Source: Candidatus Levyibacteriota bacterium | GTDB taxonomy: Bacteria; Patescibacteriota; Microgenomatia; Levybacterales; UBA12049 | NCBI GenBank assembly: GCA_016432345.1 | Contig: CP066685.1 | Span: 496,236 to 560,235, forward strand | Length of the DNA: 64,000 nt | Direction of reading: 5' to 3' | In this document: piece after piece, positions 1 to 64,000 of the stretch | Numbering within the stretch: position 1 is the stretch's first letter | Layout: the number at the start of each line of letters is the position of its first letter | Notes under the pieces: model-generated | Seen by the model: the letters and a program-made list of their open reading frames with translations, nothing else | Told to the model about the DNA's origin: nothing | Database searches by the model: none | Made by a program: the position numbers and the translations under genes

Positions 1-894
1 AAGGCGGATATTCATTGGCATACCATTGAAGAACAACTAAAATTTCCTCAAATTCTTAATAAAGAAAATATTGACCTGATGCATTTTCCCTACTTTTCTG
101 TTCCTCTTTTTTATAACAAACCTTTTGTTGTTACGATTCATGACTTAATTTTGCATCATTTTCCAACAGGCCGGGCTTCTACGCTTCCACTACCAGCATA
201 CTGGTTAAAACTATTTGTGTACAGGTTTATTTTGAAAAAATCGGCACAAAAAGCGCGAAGGATACTTACTGTGTCTTATGCAACAAAAGACGAGATTGTT
301 AAGCATTTGCATGTGTCTCAAGATAAAATTATCGTTACATACGAAGGAGTAGATACTAAATCTACAAATACCAAATACCAAATACCAAATACCAAATACT
401 TTTTGTATGTTGGGAATGCGTATCCACACAAGAATCTGGAGAGATTAATAGAAGCATCCACGAGAATCAAGCTAATACTAGTTGGTAGAGAGGATTATTT
501 CTATAAAAGACTAAAGGAGAAAGTAAAAAAAATGGGATTAGAAAAACAAATAGTTTTTTATGGATATGCGACTGACGAAGAACTTTCATTTTTATATAAA
601 AATGCTGAGGCACTAATTATGCCGTCTCTTATGGAAGGATTTGGCTTGCCAGTTTTAGAGGCAATGGCTAATAAATGTTTGGTTTTGGCATCAGATATTC
701 CGGCACATAGAGAAATAGCAGGAGATGCAGTAAGTTATTTTAACCCTCTAGATGTTAGAGATATAGAAAAAAAAATGCAGAACATTCATCCAGATGATAA
801 AGTTCAGAAAGGTTTTGATAGGGCAAAAATGTTTTCATGGGAGAGAATGGCAAAGGAAACTTTAAGTATATATGAAAGTTGCGTTAGTGTATGA
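1..894 (+). CDS. Glycosyltransferase family 1 (GT4-like, GT-B fold), 5' end cut by window edge
   Basis: Frame 1 is open from nt 1 with no stop before the ATG at 79, so the gene begins upstream of the window. The C-terminal half has GT1 hallmarks (FLYVGNAYPHKN, PSLMEGFGLPVLEAMA). It carries the (CAAATAC)5 array at 365-399. Confidence 0.85.
   Translation, partial: KADIHWHTIEEQLKFPQILNKENIDLMHFPYFSVPLFYNKPFVVTIHDLILHHFPTGRASTLPLPAYWLKLFVYRFILKKSAQKARRILTVSYATKDEIVKHLHVSQDKIIVTYEGVDTKSTNTKYQIPNTKYFLYVGNAYPHKNLERLIEASTRIKLILVGREDYFYKRLKEKVKKMGLEKQIVFYGYATDEELSFLYKNAEALIMPSLMEGFGLPVLEAMANKCLVLASDIPAHREIAGDAVSYFNPLDVRDIEKKMQNIHPDDKVQKGFDRAKMFSWERMAKETLSIYESCVSV
365..399 (+). repeat. Perfect heptanucleotide tandem array (CAAATAC)x5, 35 nt, in frame in a GT1 gene
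   Basis: Period-7 identity holds exactly from 365 to 399. It encodes NTKYQIPNTKY directly before the first beta-strand of the C-terminal Rossmann domain (FLYVG). Confidence 0.97.
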
Positions 895-1954
895 TCGAGT
901 AAATAAGTGGGGAGGGGCGGAGAGAGTTTTACTTACTCTTCATGAAATGTTTCCAGACGCTCCGTTATATACTTCTGTATATGATTCAAAGAAGGCGCCA
1001 TGGGCAGATATTTTTGATATTCGAACTTCGTTTTTACAAAAATTGCCGATTTCTTTCCATCACGAATACTACCCATTTTTAATGCCGTTGGCGTTTGAAG
1101 GTTTTTCGTTTGACGATTATGATTTAGTTATTTCTGTAACATCAGAGGCAGCAAAAGGAATTATTACTAAACCACATACTTTACATATTTGTTATTGTCT
1201 GACTCCGACTCGTTATCTGTGGAGTGGTTATGAAAATTATTTTAGAAATCCATTGTTTCAGATACTTTCTTATCCATCGGTTTCTTATCTTCGTGCATGG
1301 GATTTGGTTGCAGCAAAGCGGCCAGATGCGTATATTGCGATTTCGAAAGAAGTTCAAAATAGAATAAAAAAATACTACGATCGAGAATCAGAAGTAATAT
1401 ATCCACCTGTTGAAATACCAAATACCAAATACCAAATACCAAATACTGGCTTCTTTTTAGTTGTTTCACGACTTGTATCATATAAGCGGATTGATATTGC
1501 GATAGAAGCATGTAATAGACTCCGTTTGCCGCTTAAAATTGTAGGTGTAGGATCGGAAGAAAAAAGACTAAAACGAATTGCTGGTTCCACAATTGAATTT
1601 TTAGGAAACTTGACTGATAACGAGCTGGTAAGGTATTATAAAGCGTGTCTTGCGCTTATTTTTCCCGGCAATGAAGATTTTGGGATTGTAATGGGAGAGG
1701 CAAGTCTTTTTAGTAAACCTGTTATTGCATTTAAAGGAGGAGGCGCACTTGAGATTATTAGAGAAGGAAAGACAGGTGCATTTTTTTATCCTCAAACAGC
1801 GCAAGCGTTAACAGATTGTTTAATGATATTTAAATCTAAAAGTTTTAAGGATGAGATTATAAAAGATTGCGCAGTAAGGTTTGGCAAAGATAGGTTTAAA
1901 AAGGCATTTTTTGACATGATTGCTATGTTGTATAAAGAACATAGCAAAAAATAA
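872..1954 (+). CDS. Glycosyltransferase family 1 (GT-B fold)
   Basis: 360-aa ORF with an ATG start that overlaps the upstream gene. The C-terminal Rossmann half shows FFLVVSRLVSYKRID and FPGNEDFGIVMGEA. It carries a CAAATAC array at 1412-1446. Confidence 0.85.
   Translation: MKVALVYDRVNKWGGAERVLLTLHEMFPDAPLYTSVYDSKKAPWADIFDIRTSFLQKLPISFHHEYYPFLMPLAFEGFSFDDYDLVISVTSEAAKGIITKPHTLHICYCLTPTRYLWSGYENYFRNPLFQILSYPSVSYLRAWDLVAAKRPDAYIAISKEVQNRIKKYYDRESEVIYPPVEIPNTKYQIPNTGFFLVVSRLVSYKRIDIAIEACNRLRLPLKIVGVGSEEKRLKRIAGSTIEFLGNLTDNELVRYYKACLALIFPGNEDFGIVMGEASLFSKPVIAFKGGGALEIIREGKTGAFFYPQTAQALTDCLMIFKSKSFKDEIIKDCAVRFGKDRFKKAFFDMIAMLYKEHSKK
1412..1446 (+). repeat. Heptanucleotide tandem array GAAATAC(CAAATAC)x4, 35 nt, in frame in the adjacent GT1 gene
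   Basis: Perfect period-7 identity runs from 1413 to 1446. It encodes IPNTKYQIPNT directly before FFLVVSRL, the same structural position as 365-399. Confidence 0.97.
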
Positions 1955-1955
1955 C

Positions 1956-62107: not shown

Positions 62108-62115
62108 ATGCGGTT

Positions 62116-62970
62116 TTACATAGTGTTGGCGCCAGTAATATCCAAAATTTCGTTAGTAATTTTGGCTTGTCGGGTTTTATTATACTCTAATTTTAAGTCC
62201 TCTATAATACTATTGGCGTTGTCTGTGGCATTTTGCATAGAGATCATGCGAGCTGCTTGTTCGGACACAAAACTTTCTAAAAAATGTTGATACACAGCCA
62301 TTTCCAAATAGTGATTTAACAGGGGAGTCATAAGTGTTTTTTGGTCTGGTTCGAAAATATAAGGGTTTTTTGCTTCTTCTTTTTCCTCTTGCGGAACCTG
62401 CAAAGGTAGAATAGTAGTGATTTTTGGCGTTTGGGTAAAAATACTGGTAAAGTGGGTGCCAATAATTTTAACATTGTCAACTTTGCCAGAGAGGTAATAG
62501 TTTTCGATAATGCGGGTAACAGGGAAGACCATATCAAAAGTTGGAGTAGTGTTGCCAAACACGAAGGATGCAATGATTTCTTTTTTTTGGTGGGTAACTT
62601 GCATTTCCAGTTTTTTACCAACAGTTATAAAAGCCACATTTTGTTGGGTTTTACCATACCGCAAAAACTCTCGAAGTAAATTAGTGATAAGGCCGCCGCA
62701 AAGACCTTTATCTGGAGACAAAACAATTACCAATGTTTTGTTAGTTAATGACCGTTGTTTTAAATACGGATGGCTAGTCTCGTCAGAACCTGTGTATTTT
62801 GCTAATTGAGCAGATAAGGCAGTTAGGCTTTGCACATAAGGTCTGGAGGCTAAAGTTGCATCTTGCGCTCGTTTCATTTTGGATGCGGCAATCATTTGCA
62901 TGGCTTTAGTTGTTTTTGATACATTTTGCGCTGCTGTAATTCGACGTTTTAAGATTAATATACTTGCCAT
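62116..62970 (-). CDS. atpG: F1 ATP synthase gamma subunit
   Basis: The N-terminus [28 protein letters not shown] and the C-terminus [15 protein letters not shown] match gamma. Confidence 0.93.
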
Positions 62971-64000
62971 ACTTTTTTGAAATCCTCCAGCGTTTTTTTT
63001 AAAAGTTTAGTTGTTTCTTCGTTAATTTTATTTCCTGTGCTTAGTTCTTCCAGTACTTTTGCTTTGTGTGTTTTTGTGTATTCATGAAGTTCTTTTTCGA
63101 ATCTTTGCACCTGTTCAACTGGCACATCGTCCAAAAAGCCATTACTTACAGCCCAAAGACTTAATACTTCTAAACTTTCTGGAAGTGGCTGGTATTGCGG
63201 CTGTTTTAAAATTTCAGTCATCCGTTTACCTTTTTCCAGTTGTTTTTGAGTGGCGGCATCTAATTCACTGCCAAATTGAGCAAAGGCTGCTAATTCTCGG
63301 TATTGAGCTAGTTCGAGACGCATTTTTCCAGAAACAGATTTCATGGTGCCAGATTGAGCGGCCCCGCCGACCCGAGAAACAGAATTACCAACATTAATAG
63401 CAGGTCGAATACCAATATTAAATAAATCTCCCTGCAAAAAAATCTGCCCGTCGGTAATGGAAATAACATTGGTTGGGATGTAAGCTGAAATATCACCAGC
63501 CTGGGTTTCGATAATGGGAAGAGCGGTAATCGAACCATCGCCGTTTTTTTTGTTTAATCTTACAGCGCGTTCAAGTAATCTACTATGCAAGTAAAAAATA
63601 TCACCAGGATAAGCCTCGCGGCCAGCGGGACGACGTAGCACTAAAGACAATTGACGATATGCCCAGGCGTGTTTGGTAAGATCGTCATAGACCACTAGCA
63701 CATCTTCGCCTTTTTCCATAAAGTATTCGGCTATAGCTGCGCCAGCATAAGGAGCTAAGTATTGCAAAGCCGCCGGATCAGGCGCATTGGCCGCCACAAT
63801 TATAGTGTATGAATCTGCGTTTTCTTCTTTGAGTCTGTTGATAATTTGGGCAACAGTTGATTGCTTTTGACCAATTGCCACATAGACGCAGATAACACCT
63901 TTGGTGCGTGGAGCGTGGCTCGTGGATTTTTCGTGGGTAGATCGTTGATTAATAATAGTGTCAATGGCAATAGCTGTTTTGCCCAAACCTCGATCTCCGA
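62955..64000 (-). CDS. atpA: F1 ATP synthase alpha subunit, 5' end beyond the window
   Basis: The reading frame is open to nt 64000. The P-loop GDRGLGKT lies at the edge, the Leu of GLGK being the TTG mis-called as a start in the ORF track. It contains a 12-aa insert directly after the P-loop helix (63902-63936). Confidence 0.95.
63902..63936 (-). repeat. Degenerate GC-rich period-7 segment (plus strand TGGTGCG TGGAGCG TGGCTCG TGGATTT TTCGTGG) in atpA
   Basis: There are three clear TGGNNCG units plus two decayed units. It encodes most of a 12-aa (36-nt) insert, [12 protein letters not shown], relative to E. coli and B. subtilis alpha subunits (INQ-x5-ICIYV). It is locally much more GC-rich than its flanks. 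Confidence 0.7.

What the first reader, a model, noticed from the sequence alone, without database searches (positions are those of the whole stretch)
365..63936. Window-wide pattern: length-quantised (about 35 nt, about 5 x 7) in-frame cassettes, perfect in accessory genes and interrupted in essential genes
At least eight sites (365, 1412, 27301, 35755, 36123, 51183, 51813 and 63902), and possibly 14200 and 23664, share period 7, roughly five copies and a total length of 31-36 nt. All preserve the host reading frame. Where the host fold is known, they sit in loops or linkers. Unit sequences differ between sites but recur between unrelated genes: CAAATAC in two GT1 genes, and GATYAAA in murG and ileS. 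Perfect arrays occur only in non-essential glycosyltransferase genes. Arrays in murG, ileS and atpA are interrupted or decayed. I know of no described bacterial element or process that produces this. It could be (a) a heptamer-based contingency-locus system, (b) footprints of a reiterative, telomerase-like or primer-slippage DNA synthesis acting at breaks, or (c) a tiny non-autonomous insertion class. All three interpretations are speculative.
Basis: partly seen in the sequence, partly recalled or inferred. Interest (0 to 1): 0.85.

Follow-up and report, generated by a model that had tools for sequence, protein, structure and literature searches.

The report
In-frame 7-base microsatellites inside genes
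This stretch of an uncultured Levybacteria (CPR) genome really does carry short runs of 7-base tandem repeats inside intact genes, mostly sugar-transferase genes, but they are an in-frame form of the heptanucleotide microsatellites already known to be over-represented in many bacteria, not inserted cassettes or a new kind of element.

Summary
Seven period-7 arrays stand far above chance (codon shuffles give none) and an eighth, at 63902, is short and weak. Sites 14200 and 23664 are not period 7. No other period from 1 to 21 behaves this way, in the window or in about 250 kb from relatives. The window is a Candidatus Levybacteria (CPR) genome. The arrays are not insertions: orthologues without them have equally long or longer segments. 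They sit at fixed structural spots, chiefly the hinge of GT-B glycosyltransferases (three GT4 paralogue families and MurG) and one GT2 loop. Orthologous arrays keep their position and unit number while the unit sequence changes in all copies together, which indicates slippage-driven homogenisation. Perfect arrays all use stop-free units. The murG and first ileS arrays use units containing TAA, so they cannot be perfect. I read them as heptanucleotide microsatellites, a class reported as over-represented in many bacteria in 2007, here kept in frame in tolerant linkers. Gain or loss of one or two units would truncate each protein, as in E. coli NeuO. I found no out-of-frame allele and no copy-number polymorphism, so a phase-variation role is unproven. 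Verdict: a new variant of a known kind, of moderate interest.

The parts
365..399 (+). Perfect heptamer array (CAAATAC) x5.0 in GT4 gene A (ORF runs off the window start to 894). It encodes TNTKYQIPNTKY in the GT-B interdomain linker, just before the FLYVGN strand.
1413..1446 (+). Perfect heptamer array (AAATACC) x4.9 in GT4 gene B (872..1954). It encodes EIPNTKYQIPNT, residues 181-192, in the coil between the two Rossmann domains.
27292..27337 (+). Imperfect heptamer array in murG (26798..27907), residues 165-180, in the interdomain linker. Units GATTTAA and GATTAAA alternate. Both contain TAA, so a perfect array would create an in-frame stop. The array is length-neutral against orthologues, and L001 has a five-unit array at the same spot.
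35755..35787 (+). Imperfect heptamer array (consensus AGTATAA, which contains TAA) in ileS (33768..36581), residues 663-674, between the catalytic and anticodon-binding domains. It is length-neutral against the L009 orthologue.
36122..36152 (+). Imperfect heptamer array (GATCAAA/GATTAAA) in ileS, residues 785-795, at an indel-prone spot of the anticodon-binding domain.
51182..51212 (+). Perfect heptamer array (AATTTTC) x4.4 in the GT2 gene (51042..51992), residues 47-57, at the end of a helix and the start of a low-confidence loop after the DxSxD motif. Orthologues mostly read ISNFQFPISN, which equals (AATTTCC)n, at this site.
51813..51844 (+). Perfect heptamer array (CTATACG) x4.6 in the same GT2 gene, residues 258-268, spanning a turn and the start of a helix. 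It is unique to this genome among the 60 orthologues aligned. It is length-neutral, and five orthologues have an 8-residue deletion at this spot.
63902..63925 (-). Short weak period-7 run (about 3 units built around CGTGG) in atpA (the ORF runs off the window end). It is a marginal member.
38106..38138 (.). Poor intergenic period-7 run (TAATTTT, 74% matches) upstream of ORF 38145..38396. It is a doubtful member.

Best explanation
These are heptanucleotide microsatellites, not cassettes. Shown: the genome belongs to a lineage (Candidatus Levybacteria, and CPR-like contigs more widely) in which tandem repeats form almost only with a 7-base unit. Inferred: the arrays arise and are kept pure by slipped-strand mispairing during replication or repair. 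This is the explanation already proposed for the excess of heptameric repeats in many bacteria. Because CPR genomes are almost entirely coding, the arrays that survive are those inside genes that meet three conditions. The total length must keep the frame (changes of three units, 21 nt, 7 residues). The unit must contain no TAA, TAG or TGA in any phase. The encoded 7-residue-periodic peptide must fall in a segment that tolerates any sequence, mainly interdomain linkers and surface loops. Shown: orthologous arrays persist at the same site and with the same unit number across species, while a changed unit replaces all copies (concerted evolution). Inferred: gain or loss of one or two units gives truncated, inactive proteins. 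Homogenisation is therefore easiest in dispensable genes such as glycosyltransferases, where off-state intermediates can survive. In essential genes arrays can only decay or change in three-unit steps. A low-rate on/off switching of surface-glycan genes follows mechanically from this, but whether it is used adaptively is not shown.
For: Period specificity.
- In the window, period 7 gives 7 regions, other periods give 0-1, and shuffles give 0.
- In the relatives' loci, period 7 gives 22 runs, period 14 gives 11 and period 21 gives 4. Period 9 gives 1 run, period 18 gives 2, and every other period from 1 to 21 gives none. Loci L020-L029 show only period 7.
- In 80 metagenome loci chosen for one unit, 51 further period-7 arrays with other units occur, against 1-12 for each other period except 14.

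Not insertions.
- The MurG alignment shows no added length, and neither does the first IleS array.
- The window's GT4-B linker is 14 residues against a family median of 19 and a range of 2-70.
- GT2 array 2 is length-neutral.

Fixed structural sites.
- Three GT4 paralogue families (19-28% identical to the window's GT4-A in alignment A3) and MurG all carry arrays between the GVD/YPPV motif and the first strand of the C-domain.
- GT2 arrays sit after the DxSxD motif in the window and in its orthologues. The GT2 genes of L011 and L013 carry arrays at similar residue numbers (about 53-65), and L032/L041 carry one right after NDGSTDKT.
- The transketolase, PurL-like and oxidoreductase arrays lie between Pfam domains.

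Concerted evolution.
- GT4-C has (AAAGTTC)x4 in L011, (AGAATTC)x3 after an AAAATTC unit in L013, and a mixture in L020, all with the same length.
- GT4-B has AAATACC in the window and L010, and AAATACA in L011.
- murG has five alternating units in both the window and L001, but with different sequences.
- The window and L010 arrays are identical at 34 of 34 positions, while in the 201-column alignment all 30 mismatches lie in the flanks.
- Perfect period-21 repeats made of three diverged heptamers (L011 9550-9582 and 10545-10577) show three-unit, in-frame steps.
- Family-wide, linker residues match at lag 7 in 13.8% of pairs, against 5-8% at other lags.

Stop-codon rule. All perfect arrays use stop-free units. 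The murG and first ileS consensus units contain TAA.

A one-unit (7 nt) difference between 95-97% identical strains occurs at a non-Levybacterial array (L095 versus L140).

Literature. Over-representation of heptameric SSRs and the polymerase-slippage hypothesis are stated in PMC4692102.
Against: - No copy-number change was seen at any Levybacterial array. Direct evidence for slippage in this lineage is therefore only comparative.
- Length-neutral replacement of unique sequence by an array (GT2 array 2, murG, first IleS array) is not what simple expansion predicts. It needs compensating deletions or an out-of-register conversion step that I could not demonstrate.
- Concerted change of the murG array in a presumably essential gene is hard to reconcile with lethal frameshift intermediates.
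- The reason for 7 bases rather than 4, 5 or 8 remains a hypothesis from the literature.
- The enrichment in glycosyltransferase genes (P = 8e-4 in the window) is not predicted by tolerance alone.
Confidence: 0.6

Rival explanations
1. The arrays in glycosyltransferase genes are selected contingency loci. In this reading, heptamer slippage switches individual surface-glycan genes on and off at high frequency. This gives the CPR cell population a changing surface against phage or host, as tetranucleotide repeats do in Haemophilus and the heptanucleotide repeat does in E. coli neuO.
For: - The unit is not divisible by 3, and the arrays are perfect, lie inside ORFs and truncate the protein after a change of one or two units.
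- Arrays are enriched in glycosyltransferase genes: window 5 of 7 arrays in 13.6% of the sequence (P = 7.7e-4); L011 5 of 5, L013 4 of 4, L020 4 of 5.
- Repeat purity is kept across species, 34 of 34 identical positions against diverged flanks.
- Four of seven Logan contigs start exactly in an array (L010 1-27, L014 1-29, L017 1-30, L019 1-30). A copy-number branch in the assembly graph would produce this.
- The neuO precedent is described in PMC13001214.
Against: - None of about 25-30 arrays in glycosyltransferase genes is out of frame. By contrast, 65.6% of neuO genomes are in the off state and neuO ranges from 3 to 53 repeats.
- Arrays are invariant across samples. The CAGGAAT array has the same length in all seven contigs of that species that I fetched, and its protein lies on 9 contigs. 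The GT4-A protein P0177 lies on 14 contigs. The PMT_2 array is unchanged in 6 cluster members, including a 92%-identical strain.
- The 90%-identity clusters contain no variants differing by 7 residues.
- There are only 4-5 copies, the arrays sit mid-gene at a structurally tolerant hinge rather than at the 5' end, and the same arrays occur in essential-type genes.
Confidence: 0.22
2. The arrays are footprints of a sequence-generating activity: a tiny non-autonomous insertion class, or reiterative (telomerase-like or primer-slippage) synthesis that fills breaks with about five copies of a heptamer.
For: - The same unit, AAATACC, turns up in frame in many unrelated genes and in contigs with GC from 0.22 to 0.63, including AT-rich units inside GC-rich genes (L078, L092).
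- Lengths of perfect arrays cluster at 27-35 nt in Levybacteria.
- Arrays replace unique sequence without changing length.
Against: - There is no length gain relative to orthologues, and no terminal repeats or target duplications.
- Units differ between sites.
- Arrays are orthologous and homogenised in place over deep divergence.
- Decayed arrays and period-14 and period-21 derivatives show gradual evolution in place.
- No reverse transcriptase, primase-polymerase or recombinase family matched among the window ORFs scanned.
- The recurrence of AAATACC was selected for by my own query.
Confidence: 0.06
3. The periodicity reflects selection on the protein: a favoured 7-residue linker motif such as KYQIPNT or ISNFQFP. 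The nucleotide repeat would then be a by-product.
For: The peptides recur across orthologues and paralogues at the same structural position.
Against: - Perfect identity at the nucleotide level, including third codon positions read in three phases, cannot come from peptide selection.
- Orthologous arrays change the peptide freely (KFKVQSS versus EFRIQNS) while keeping the DNA repeat perfect.
- Linker sequence and length are otherwise unconstrained.
Confidence: 0.04
4. The arrays are an assembly or sequencing artefact, such as repeat collapse to about the k-mer length.
For: Array lengths of 27-35 nt are close to common k-mer sizes, and some contigs break at arrays.
Against: - The same arrays appear in independent assemblies from NCBI, JGI, ENA and Logan made with different assemblers.
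- Collapse would preserve length modulo 7, not modulo 21, yet every coding array is in frame.
- Orthologous arrays are present in different species.
Confidence: 0.02

Closest known systems
Over-representation of heptameric simple-sequence repeats in bacterial genomes (Mrazek, Guo and Shah 2007, as cited in PMC4692102). Examples are the GGGAATC repeats of Xanthomonas, the GGGGA(T/C)T repeats of Nostoc, and the heptanucleotide repeats of Calothrix PCC 7601. I also recall these cyanobacterial repeats being called STRR sequences.
   Same: Tandem repeats form preferentially with a 7-base unit. Many different units occur per genome. Arrays are short. [quoted passage not shown] The trait is genome-wide and specific to lineages.
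   Different: The Xanthomonas and Nostoc cases described in PMC4692102 are mainly intergenic, G-rich and often longer. Here the arrays are AT-rich, inside ORFs, kept in frame, capped at about 5 copies and fixed at protein linkers. A CPR case was not found in the held literature.
The neuO heptanucleotide repeat (AAGACTC) of E. coli K1 (PMC13001214)
   Same: A 7-base repeat lies inside a coding sequence of a surface-polysaccharide-modifying enzyme. The full-length protein is made only when the repeat number fits the frame (a multiple of three). The repeat is translated into a 7-residue-periodic peptide.
   Different: The neuO repeat sits at the 5' end, ranges from 3 to 53 copies, and 65.6% of genomes are in the off state, with measurable variants of one unit more or fewer within a culture. 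Here there are 4-5 copies, located mid-gene at a domain hinge, with no off-state alleles and no polymorphism seen.
Tetranucleotide and other SSR contingency loci in glycosyltransferase genes of Haemophilus, Neisseria, Campylobacter and Pasteurella (for example PMC2651432, PMC9176279)
   Same: Repeats are concentrated in surface-glycan glycosyltransferase genes, and frameshifting follows unit gain or loss.
   Different: Those loci have different unit sizes, much higher copy numbers and documented hypervariability, and they occur in host-adapted pathogens. None of these properties is shown here.
Intergenic TAACTGA direct repeats of marine Beggiatoaceae (PMC4679880)
   Same: Many short arrays (from two copies upward) of a heptamer are scattered through a genome.
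   Different: Those repeats use a single conserved unit, lie in intergenic positions and have a proposed regulatory role. Here units vary and the arrays are coding.
Tandem repeats of Borg elements that create disordered protein regions (PMC9879509)
   Same: Perfect, rapidly evolving nucleotide tandem repeats lie inside ORFs and add or replace flexible protein segments.
   Different: The Borg abstract describes pervasive repeat regions, in contrast to the 4-5 copies seen here. Here the unit is 7, so only every third copy number is readable.

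Membership tests
Heptanucleotide SSR excess (long-unit microsatellites of prokaryotes) | Tandem arrays with a 7-base unit are far more frequent than arrays of neighbouring unit sizes and than chance | tested here: met
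   In the window, period 7 gives 7 regions against 0-1 for other periods and 0 in shuffles. In relatives, period 7 gives 22 runs against 0-2 for periods that are not multiples of 7. In the metagenome loci there are 51 further period-7 arrays with other units.
Heptanucleotide SSR excess (long-unit microsatellites of prokaryotes) | Many different unit sequences rather than one conserved motif | tested here: met
   At least 15 distinct units occur in the window and relatives.
Heptanucleotide SSR excess (long-unit microsatellites of prokaryotes) | Evolution by unit gain, loss and homogenisation (slippage signature) | tested here: met
   Orthologous arrays evolve in concert at constant length. Period-21 duplications occur. 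L095 and L140 differ by one unit. No event was seen within a Levybacterial population.
SSR contingency locus (phase-variable gene) | A repeat with a unit not divisible by 3 inside the ORF (or promoter), so that unit changes switch expression | tested here: met
   A change of 7 or 14 nt gives a stop soon after each array. A change of 21 nt keeps the frame.
SSR contingency locus (phase-variable gene) | Copy number differs between strains or samples of one species | tested here: not met
   Arrays are identical across 7-20 or more contigs per species. The 90% clusters hold no variants differing by 7 residues. Six close orthologous AAATACC pairs have equal lengths. Only consensus assemblies were available.
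SSR contingency locus (phase-variable gene) | Out-of-frame (off) alleles are common among genomes | tested here: not met
   All of the roughly 25-30 arrays in glycosyltransferase genes lie in intact ORFs. The one split gene found (P0135/P0136) breaks at a poly-A run, not at an array.
SSR contingency locus (phase-variable gene) | Measured high-frequency reversible switching | not testable with these tools
   This needs reads or cultures. The only hint of within-sample heterogeneity is that Logan contigs start at arrays.
SSR contingency locus (phase-variable gene) | Association with surface or glycan genes | tested here: met
   See the enrichment tests. Arrays also occur in ileS, murG, and transketolase- and PurL-like genes.
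Small mobile insertion in coding sequence (MITE-like, or like the Rickettsia palindromic elements I recall from the literature) | Presence adds length relative to empty orthologous sites | tested here: not met
   The arrays are length-neutral in MurG, IleS (first array) and GT2 (second array). The window's GT4-B linker is shorter than the family median.
Small mobile insertion in coding sequence (MITE-like, or like the Rickettsia palindromic elements I recall from the literature) | Conserved element sequence, terminal repeats or target-site duplication | tested here: not met
   Units differ between sites and no conserved ends are visible in the flanks.
Intergenic heptamer repeat families (Xanthomonas/Nostoc G-rich repeats, Beggiatoa TAACTGA) | Intergenic location with a family-specific unit | tested here: not met
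   All seven strong arrays are coding and have varied AT-rich units.

The most novel reading that the evidence does not exclude
Levybacteria, and perhaps CPR bacteria generally, may maintain heptanucleotide arrays at the hinge of their surface-glycan glycosyltransferases as low-frequency on/off switches, which would be a contingency-gene system in a free-living or episymbiotic environmental lineage. Alternatively, the arrays may spread by a 7-base-register, length-preserving conversion process that overwrites neighbouring unique sequence. Such a process has not been described, and it would explain why arrays replace linker sequence rather than lengthen it, even in murG.
Probability: 0.2. Interest if true: 0.7.

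Novelty: new variant of a known kind. Interest (0 to 1): 0.5.

Why it matters
It shows that the unexplained bacterial preference for 7-base microsatellites extends to the candidate phyla radiation. There, almost the whole genome is coding, so the preference shapes protein linkers directly. Whole linker segments of conserved enzymes are written by repeat slippage, and their peptide content is set by a stop-codon filter rather than by protein function.

The fixed position, fixed unit number and changing unit sequence give a clean natural system for three questions. Why is the unit seven bases? How are in-frame repeats homogenised when intermediates are frameshifts? Do uncultured episymbionts use repeat-mediated switching of surface glycans?

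In practice, these arrays can break short-read assemblies. They also create low-complexity peptides such as KYQIPNT and ISNFQFP, which could be mistaken for conserved motifs.

Tried and rejected
- Exact-protein look-ups of the window's GT4-B and GT2 proteins, and of P0001, found no contig. I therefore could not reach the rest of the 762-kb source contig.
- I inspected cluster members for variants differing by 7 residues or truncated at arrays. The length differences were start-codon calls, contig ends, or a frameshift at a poly-A run (P0135/P0136), not array changes.
- Two contigs, L030 and L031, match the Rifle GT4-B gene exactly up to a point inside or at the end of its repeat tract and then continue into unrelated sequence. 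I could not tell rearrangement from chimeric assembly, so I did not use them.
It gave breadth across organisms but only a few orthologous pairs for polymorphism.
- L043 and L125 first appeared to differ by three units. On inspection this was unit substitution at similar total length.
- I rejected assembler collapse to the k-mer length. Collapse would keep length modulo 7, not modulo 21, and independent assemblers agree.
- I rejected peptide-level selection because copies are identical at the nucleotide level.
- The 2007 paper by Mrazek and colleagues is not held in the library. Its content is cited only through PMC4692102.
- No Rfam search or nucleic-acid folding was done. The units are not self-complementary and the arrays are translated.

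Full report
**What the window is.**
The window is 34-41% GC with strong positive GC skew and is densely coding. MurG relatives at 47-56% identity come mainly from Candidatus Levyibacteriota MAGs. The GT4 protein encoded at 872..1954 is 100% identical to an NCBI protein from a Levyibacteriota MAG contig of 762,565 bp. The gene content includes:
- a glycan-synthesis cluster at 1-5.7 kb;
- the cell-wall and division genes (Mur ligases, a family-4 glycosyl transferase (MraY-like), FtsW, MurG, FtsA and FtsZ);
- ileS, parB and an ABC transporter;
- a second glycan cluster at 48.5-57 kb;
- the ATP synthase genes.

Yes. TRF reports eight period-7 rows, four of them perfect. A census of exact runs over periods 1-21 finds seven runs at period 7 and none or one at every other period. 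With mismatches allowed (at least 20 of 24 matches), period 7 gives seven regions: 359-404, 1409-1451, 27297-27340, 35755-35789, 36119-36157, 51177-51217 and 51807-51849. All other periods from 2 to 15 give none, apart from one period-6 tract and period 14. Fifty codon shuffles give none.

The site at 63902 is a three-unit imperfect run that passes only a looser threshold. Sites 14200 and 23664 are not period-7 repeats. All seven strong arrays lie in intact ORFs: two overlapping GT4 genes, murG, ileS (two arrays) and one GT2 gene (two arrays).

**It is a habit of the lineage, not of this assembly.**
I fetched the orthologous glycan clusters of four other Levybacteria species from NCBI, JGI, ENA and Logan assemblies. 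In these loci together with the murG loci, exact runs number 22 at period 7, 11 at period 14 and 4 at period 21. Period 9 has one, period 18 has two, and every other period from 1 to 21 has none. The ten Rifle loci show only period 7.

The arrays have different units (TCACATC, AAAGTTC, AAATTCC, AAATACA, AATCTCA, AATTCAG, CAGGAAT, GATTTAC and others). Most lie in GT2, GT4 or GT-C genes. Independent assemblers give identical arrays, and every coding array is in frame. This excludes collapse to a k-mer length, which would preserve length modulo 7 but not modulo 21.

**The arrays are not insertions.**
- In the MurG alignment, the window's array-bearing linker has the same length as the linkers of five orthologues.
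- The first IleS array is length-neutral against the L009 orthologue. The second sits at an indel.
- Among 113 orthologues of GT4-B, the linker between YPP and FLVVSR ranges from 2 to 70 residues with a median of 19. The window's is 14.
- GT2 array 2 is unique to this genome among 60 orthologues. It occupies the same number of columns as the ancestral sequence, at a spot where five orthologues have an 8-residue deletion.

**They sit at fixed structural positions.**
Three GT4 paralogue families, 19-28% identical to the window's GT4-A in the alignment, carry their arrays at the same place. That place lies between the GVD/YPPV motif and the first strand of the C-terminal Rossmann domain. MurG, another GT-B enzyme, carries its array at the equivalent hinge in the window, and so does its closest relative L001.

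An AlphaFold model of GT4-B (mean pLDDT 91.1) places residues 181-192 in the coil 176-194 that precedes strand 195-198. In the GT2 model (mean pLDDT 91.5), array 1 covers the end of helix 44-49 and a low-confidence loop. Array 2 covers the turn at 257-258 and the start of helix 259-284, so 'loops or linkers' is not strictly true for it. In orthologues, the GT2 array-1 site is hypervariable and mostly reads ISNFQFPISN, the translation of (AATTTCC)n.

**Concerted evolution.**
Codon-level comparison of orthologous linkers shows the following.
- GT4-C has AAAGTTC x4 in L011, AGAATTC x3 preceded by AAAATTC in L013, and AAAGTTC followed by AGAATTC units in L020. Total length is identical in all three.
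- GT4-B has AAATACC in the window and L010, and AAATACA in L011.
- murG has five alternating units in both the window (GATTTAA/GATTAAA) and L001 (AATTCAA/AGTTCAA).
- The window and L010 arrays are identical at 34 of 34 positions, although all 30 mismatches of the 201-column alignment fall in the flanks.
- Perfect period-21 repeats built from three diverged heptamers show that three-unit, frame-preserving steps occur.
- Across the GT4-B family, linker residues are identical at lag 7 in 13.8% of pairs, against 5-8% at other lags.

These are the marks of microsatellites that are continually homogenised while selection holds their length.

**Why some arrays are perfect and others interrupted.**
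A heptamer array is read in all three phases within three units. Any unit that contains TAA, TAG or TGA in any rotation therefore cannot be perfect inside an ORF. Every perfect array here has a stop-free unit. The consensus units of the murG array and the first ileS array contain TAA. Weighted by this window's base composition, only about 53% of heptamer classes are stop-free.

This accounts for two of the three interrupted arrays without invoking essentiality. A second contribution probably exists but is inferred: changes of one or two units truncate the protein. Homogenisation through such intermediates is therefore possible only where a temporary knock-out is survivable.

Perfect AAATACC arrays lie in frame between domains of proteins matching the transketolase, PurL-type (AIR synthase/FGAR amidotransferase) and 2-oxoacid:ferredoxin oxidoreductase families, and in FemAB-family, GT2 and GT4 proteins of CPR-like contigs.

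**Is it phase variation?**
The mechanics allow it, and the arrays are enriched in glycosyltransferase genes. In the window, 5 of 7 arrays fall in 13.6% of the sequence (P = 7.7e-4). In L011, L013 and L020 the counts are 5 of 5, 4 of 4 and 4 of 5.

The defining population features were not found.
- No array in a glycosyltransferase gene is out of frame.
- The CAGGAAT, AAATTAA, AACAATC and GATTTAC arrays are the same in every contig that carries them, across samples and in a 92%-identical strain.
- The 90% clusters hold no variants differing by 7 residues.
- Six close orthologous pairs of AAATACC arrays have equal lengths.

For comparison, neuO ranges from 3 to 53 repeats and 65.6% of genomes are in the off state. 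Two hints point the other way. Four of seven Logan contigs begin exactly in an array, as expected if copy-number variants branch the assembly graph. One pair of GC-rich strains differs by exactly one unit. Consensus assemblies cannot settle this; reads can.

**How it compares with what is known.**
[quoted passage not shown] It describes strong intergenic heptamer excess in Xanthomonas and Nostoc.

My metagenome scan agrees that proneness to heptamers is a genome-level trait in diverse organisms. In 80 loci chosen only for AAATACC arrays, with GC from 0.22 to 0.63, 51 additional period-7 arrays with other units occur, against 1-12 for each other period except 14.

What is different here:
- the coding, in-frame location;
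- the fixed hinge position across paralogues;
- the cap near five copies;
- the CPR host.

I found no paper in the held library that combines Patescibacteria or CPR with such repeats. That is not proof of absence.

**Open points.**
- Length-neutral replacement of unique sequence by an array is not explained by simple expansion.
- Concerted change of the murG array in a presumably essential gene is also unexplained.
- The reason for seven bases rests on a literature hypothesis.
- I could not census the rest of the source genome.

Noticed in passing
L042 5402 and 9066 (+ strand), L085 2328 (- strand), L043 9073 (- strand, variant); also proteins P0060 and P0070. No match in the window.: A 16-base GC-rich perfect palindrome, TCCGCCAGCTGGCGGA, occurs in frame in AT-rich CPR-like genes. 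It reads NPPAGG on either strand. In P0060 and P0070 the peptide falls in the GT4-B linker, next to heptamer-derived peptides. It looks like a separate small element or hotspot embedded in coding sequence.
   Followed up: partly
L031 (junction near position 846) and L030 (junction near position 1682), compared with L020 10001-11107: Two contigs from independent samples match the Rifle GT4-B gene exactly up to a point inside, or at the end of, its heptamer tract. They then continue into unrelated sequence. One continuation encodes a small protein with a hydrophobic N-terminal segment. This could be rearrangement at the repeat or a chimeric assembly.
   Followed up: partly
This suggests assembly-graph branching at the arrays, possibly from copy-number heterogeneity within the sample.
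   Followed up: partly
L095 around 7650-7730 and L140 around 630-700: In a GC-rich organism, an AAATACC array is preceded by its reverse complement (GGTATTT units), forming an inverted pair. The two strains differ by one 7-base unit. This resembles the paired inverted heptamer repeats described for Xanthomonas.
   Followed up: no
window 45813-45863, inside ORF 45216..48404 (- strand): A period-6/12 repeat (GTCGGA, 8.3 copies, 79% matches) lies in a 1062-residue protein with peptidase C39-like, fibronectin type III and chitobiase C-terminal domains. It is the only notable repeat in the window whose period is not 7, and its unit is divisible by three.
   Followed up: no
window 872-894: The two GT4 genes that carry the identical CAAATAC array overlap by 23 bases. 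The arrays are 1,048 bases apart in direct orientation, so recombination between them could delete or fuse domains of the two enzymes.
   Followed up: no
window 25720-26793 and 36578-37660: There are two FtsW/RodA-family paralogues, one in the cell-wall cluster next to murG and one directly downstream of ileS.
   Followed up: no
L020 10523-10640: The GT4-B linker of the Rifle species is a tract of about 70 bases made of roughly ten decayed heptamer units (NNNCAAA, then NNAAATA). Longer arrays therefore exist once they are interrupted.
   Followed up: yes
window 30986-32830 (- strand), 33058-33687 (- strand), 49208-49951, 17789-18265, 27913-28338: Several sizeable ORFs have no Pfam match at E <= 1e-5, including a 614-residue protein between ftsZ and ileS.
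   Followed up: no
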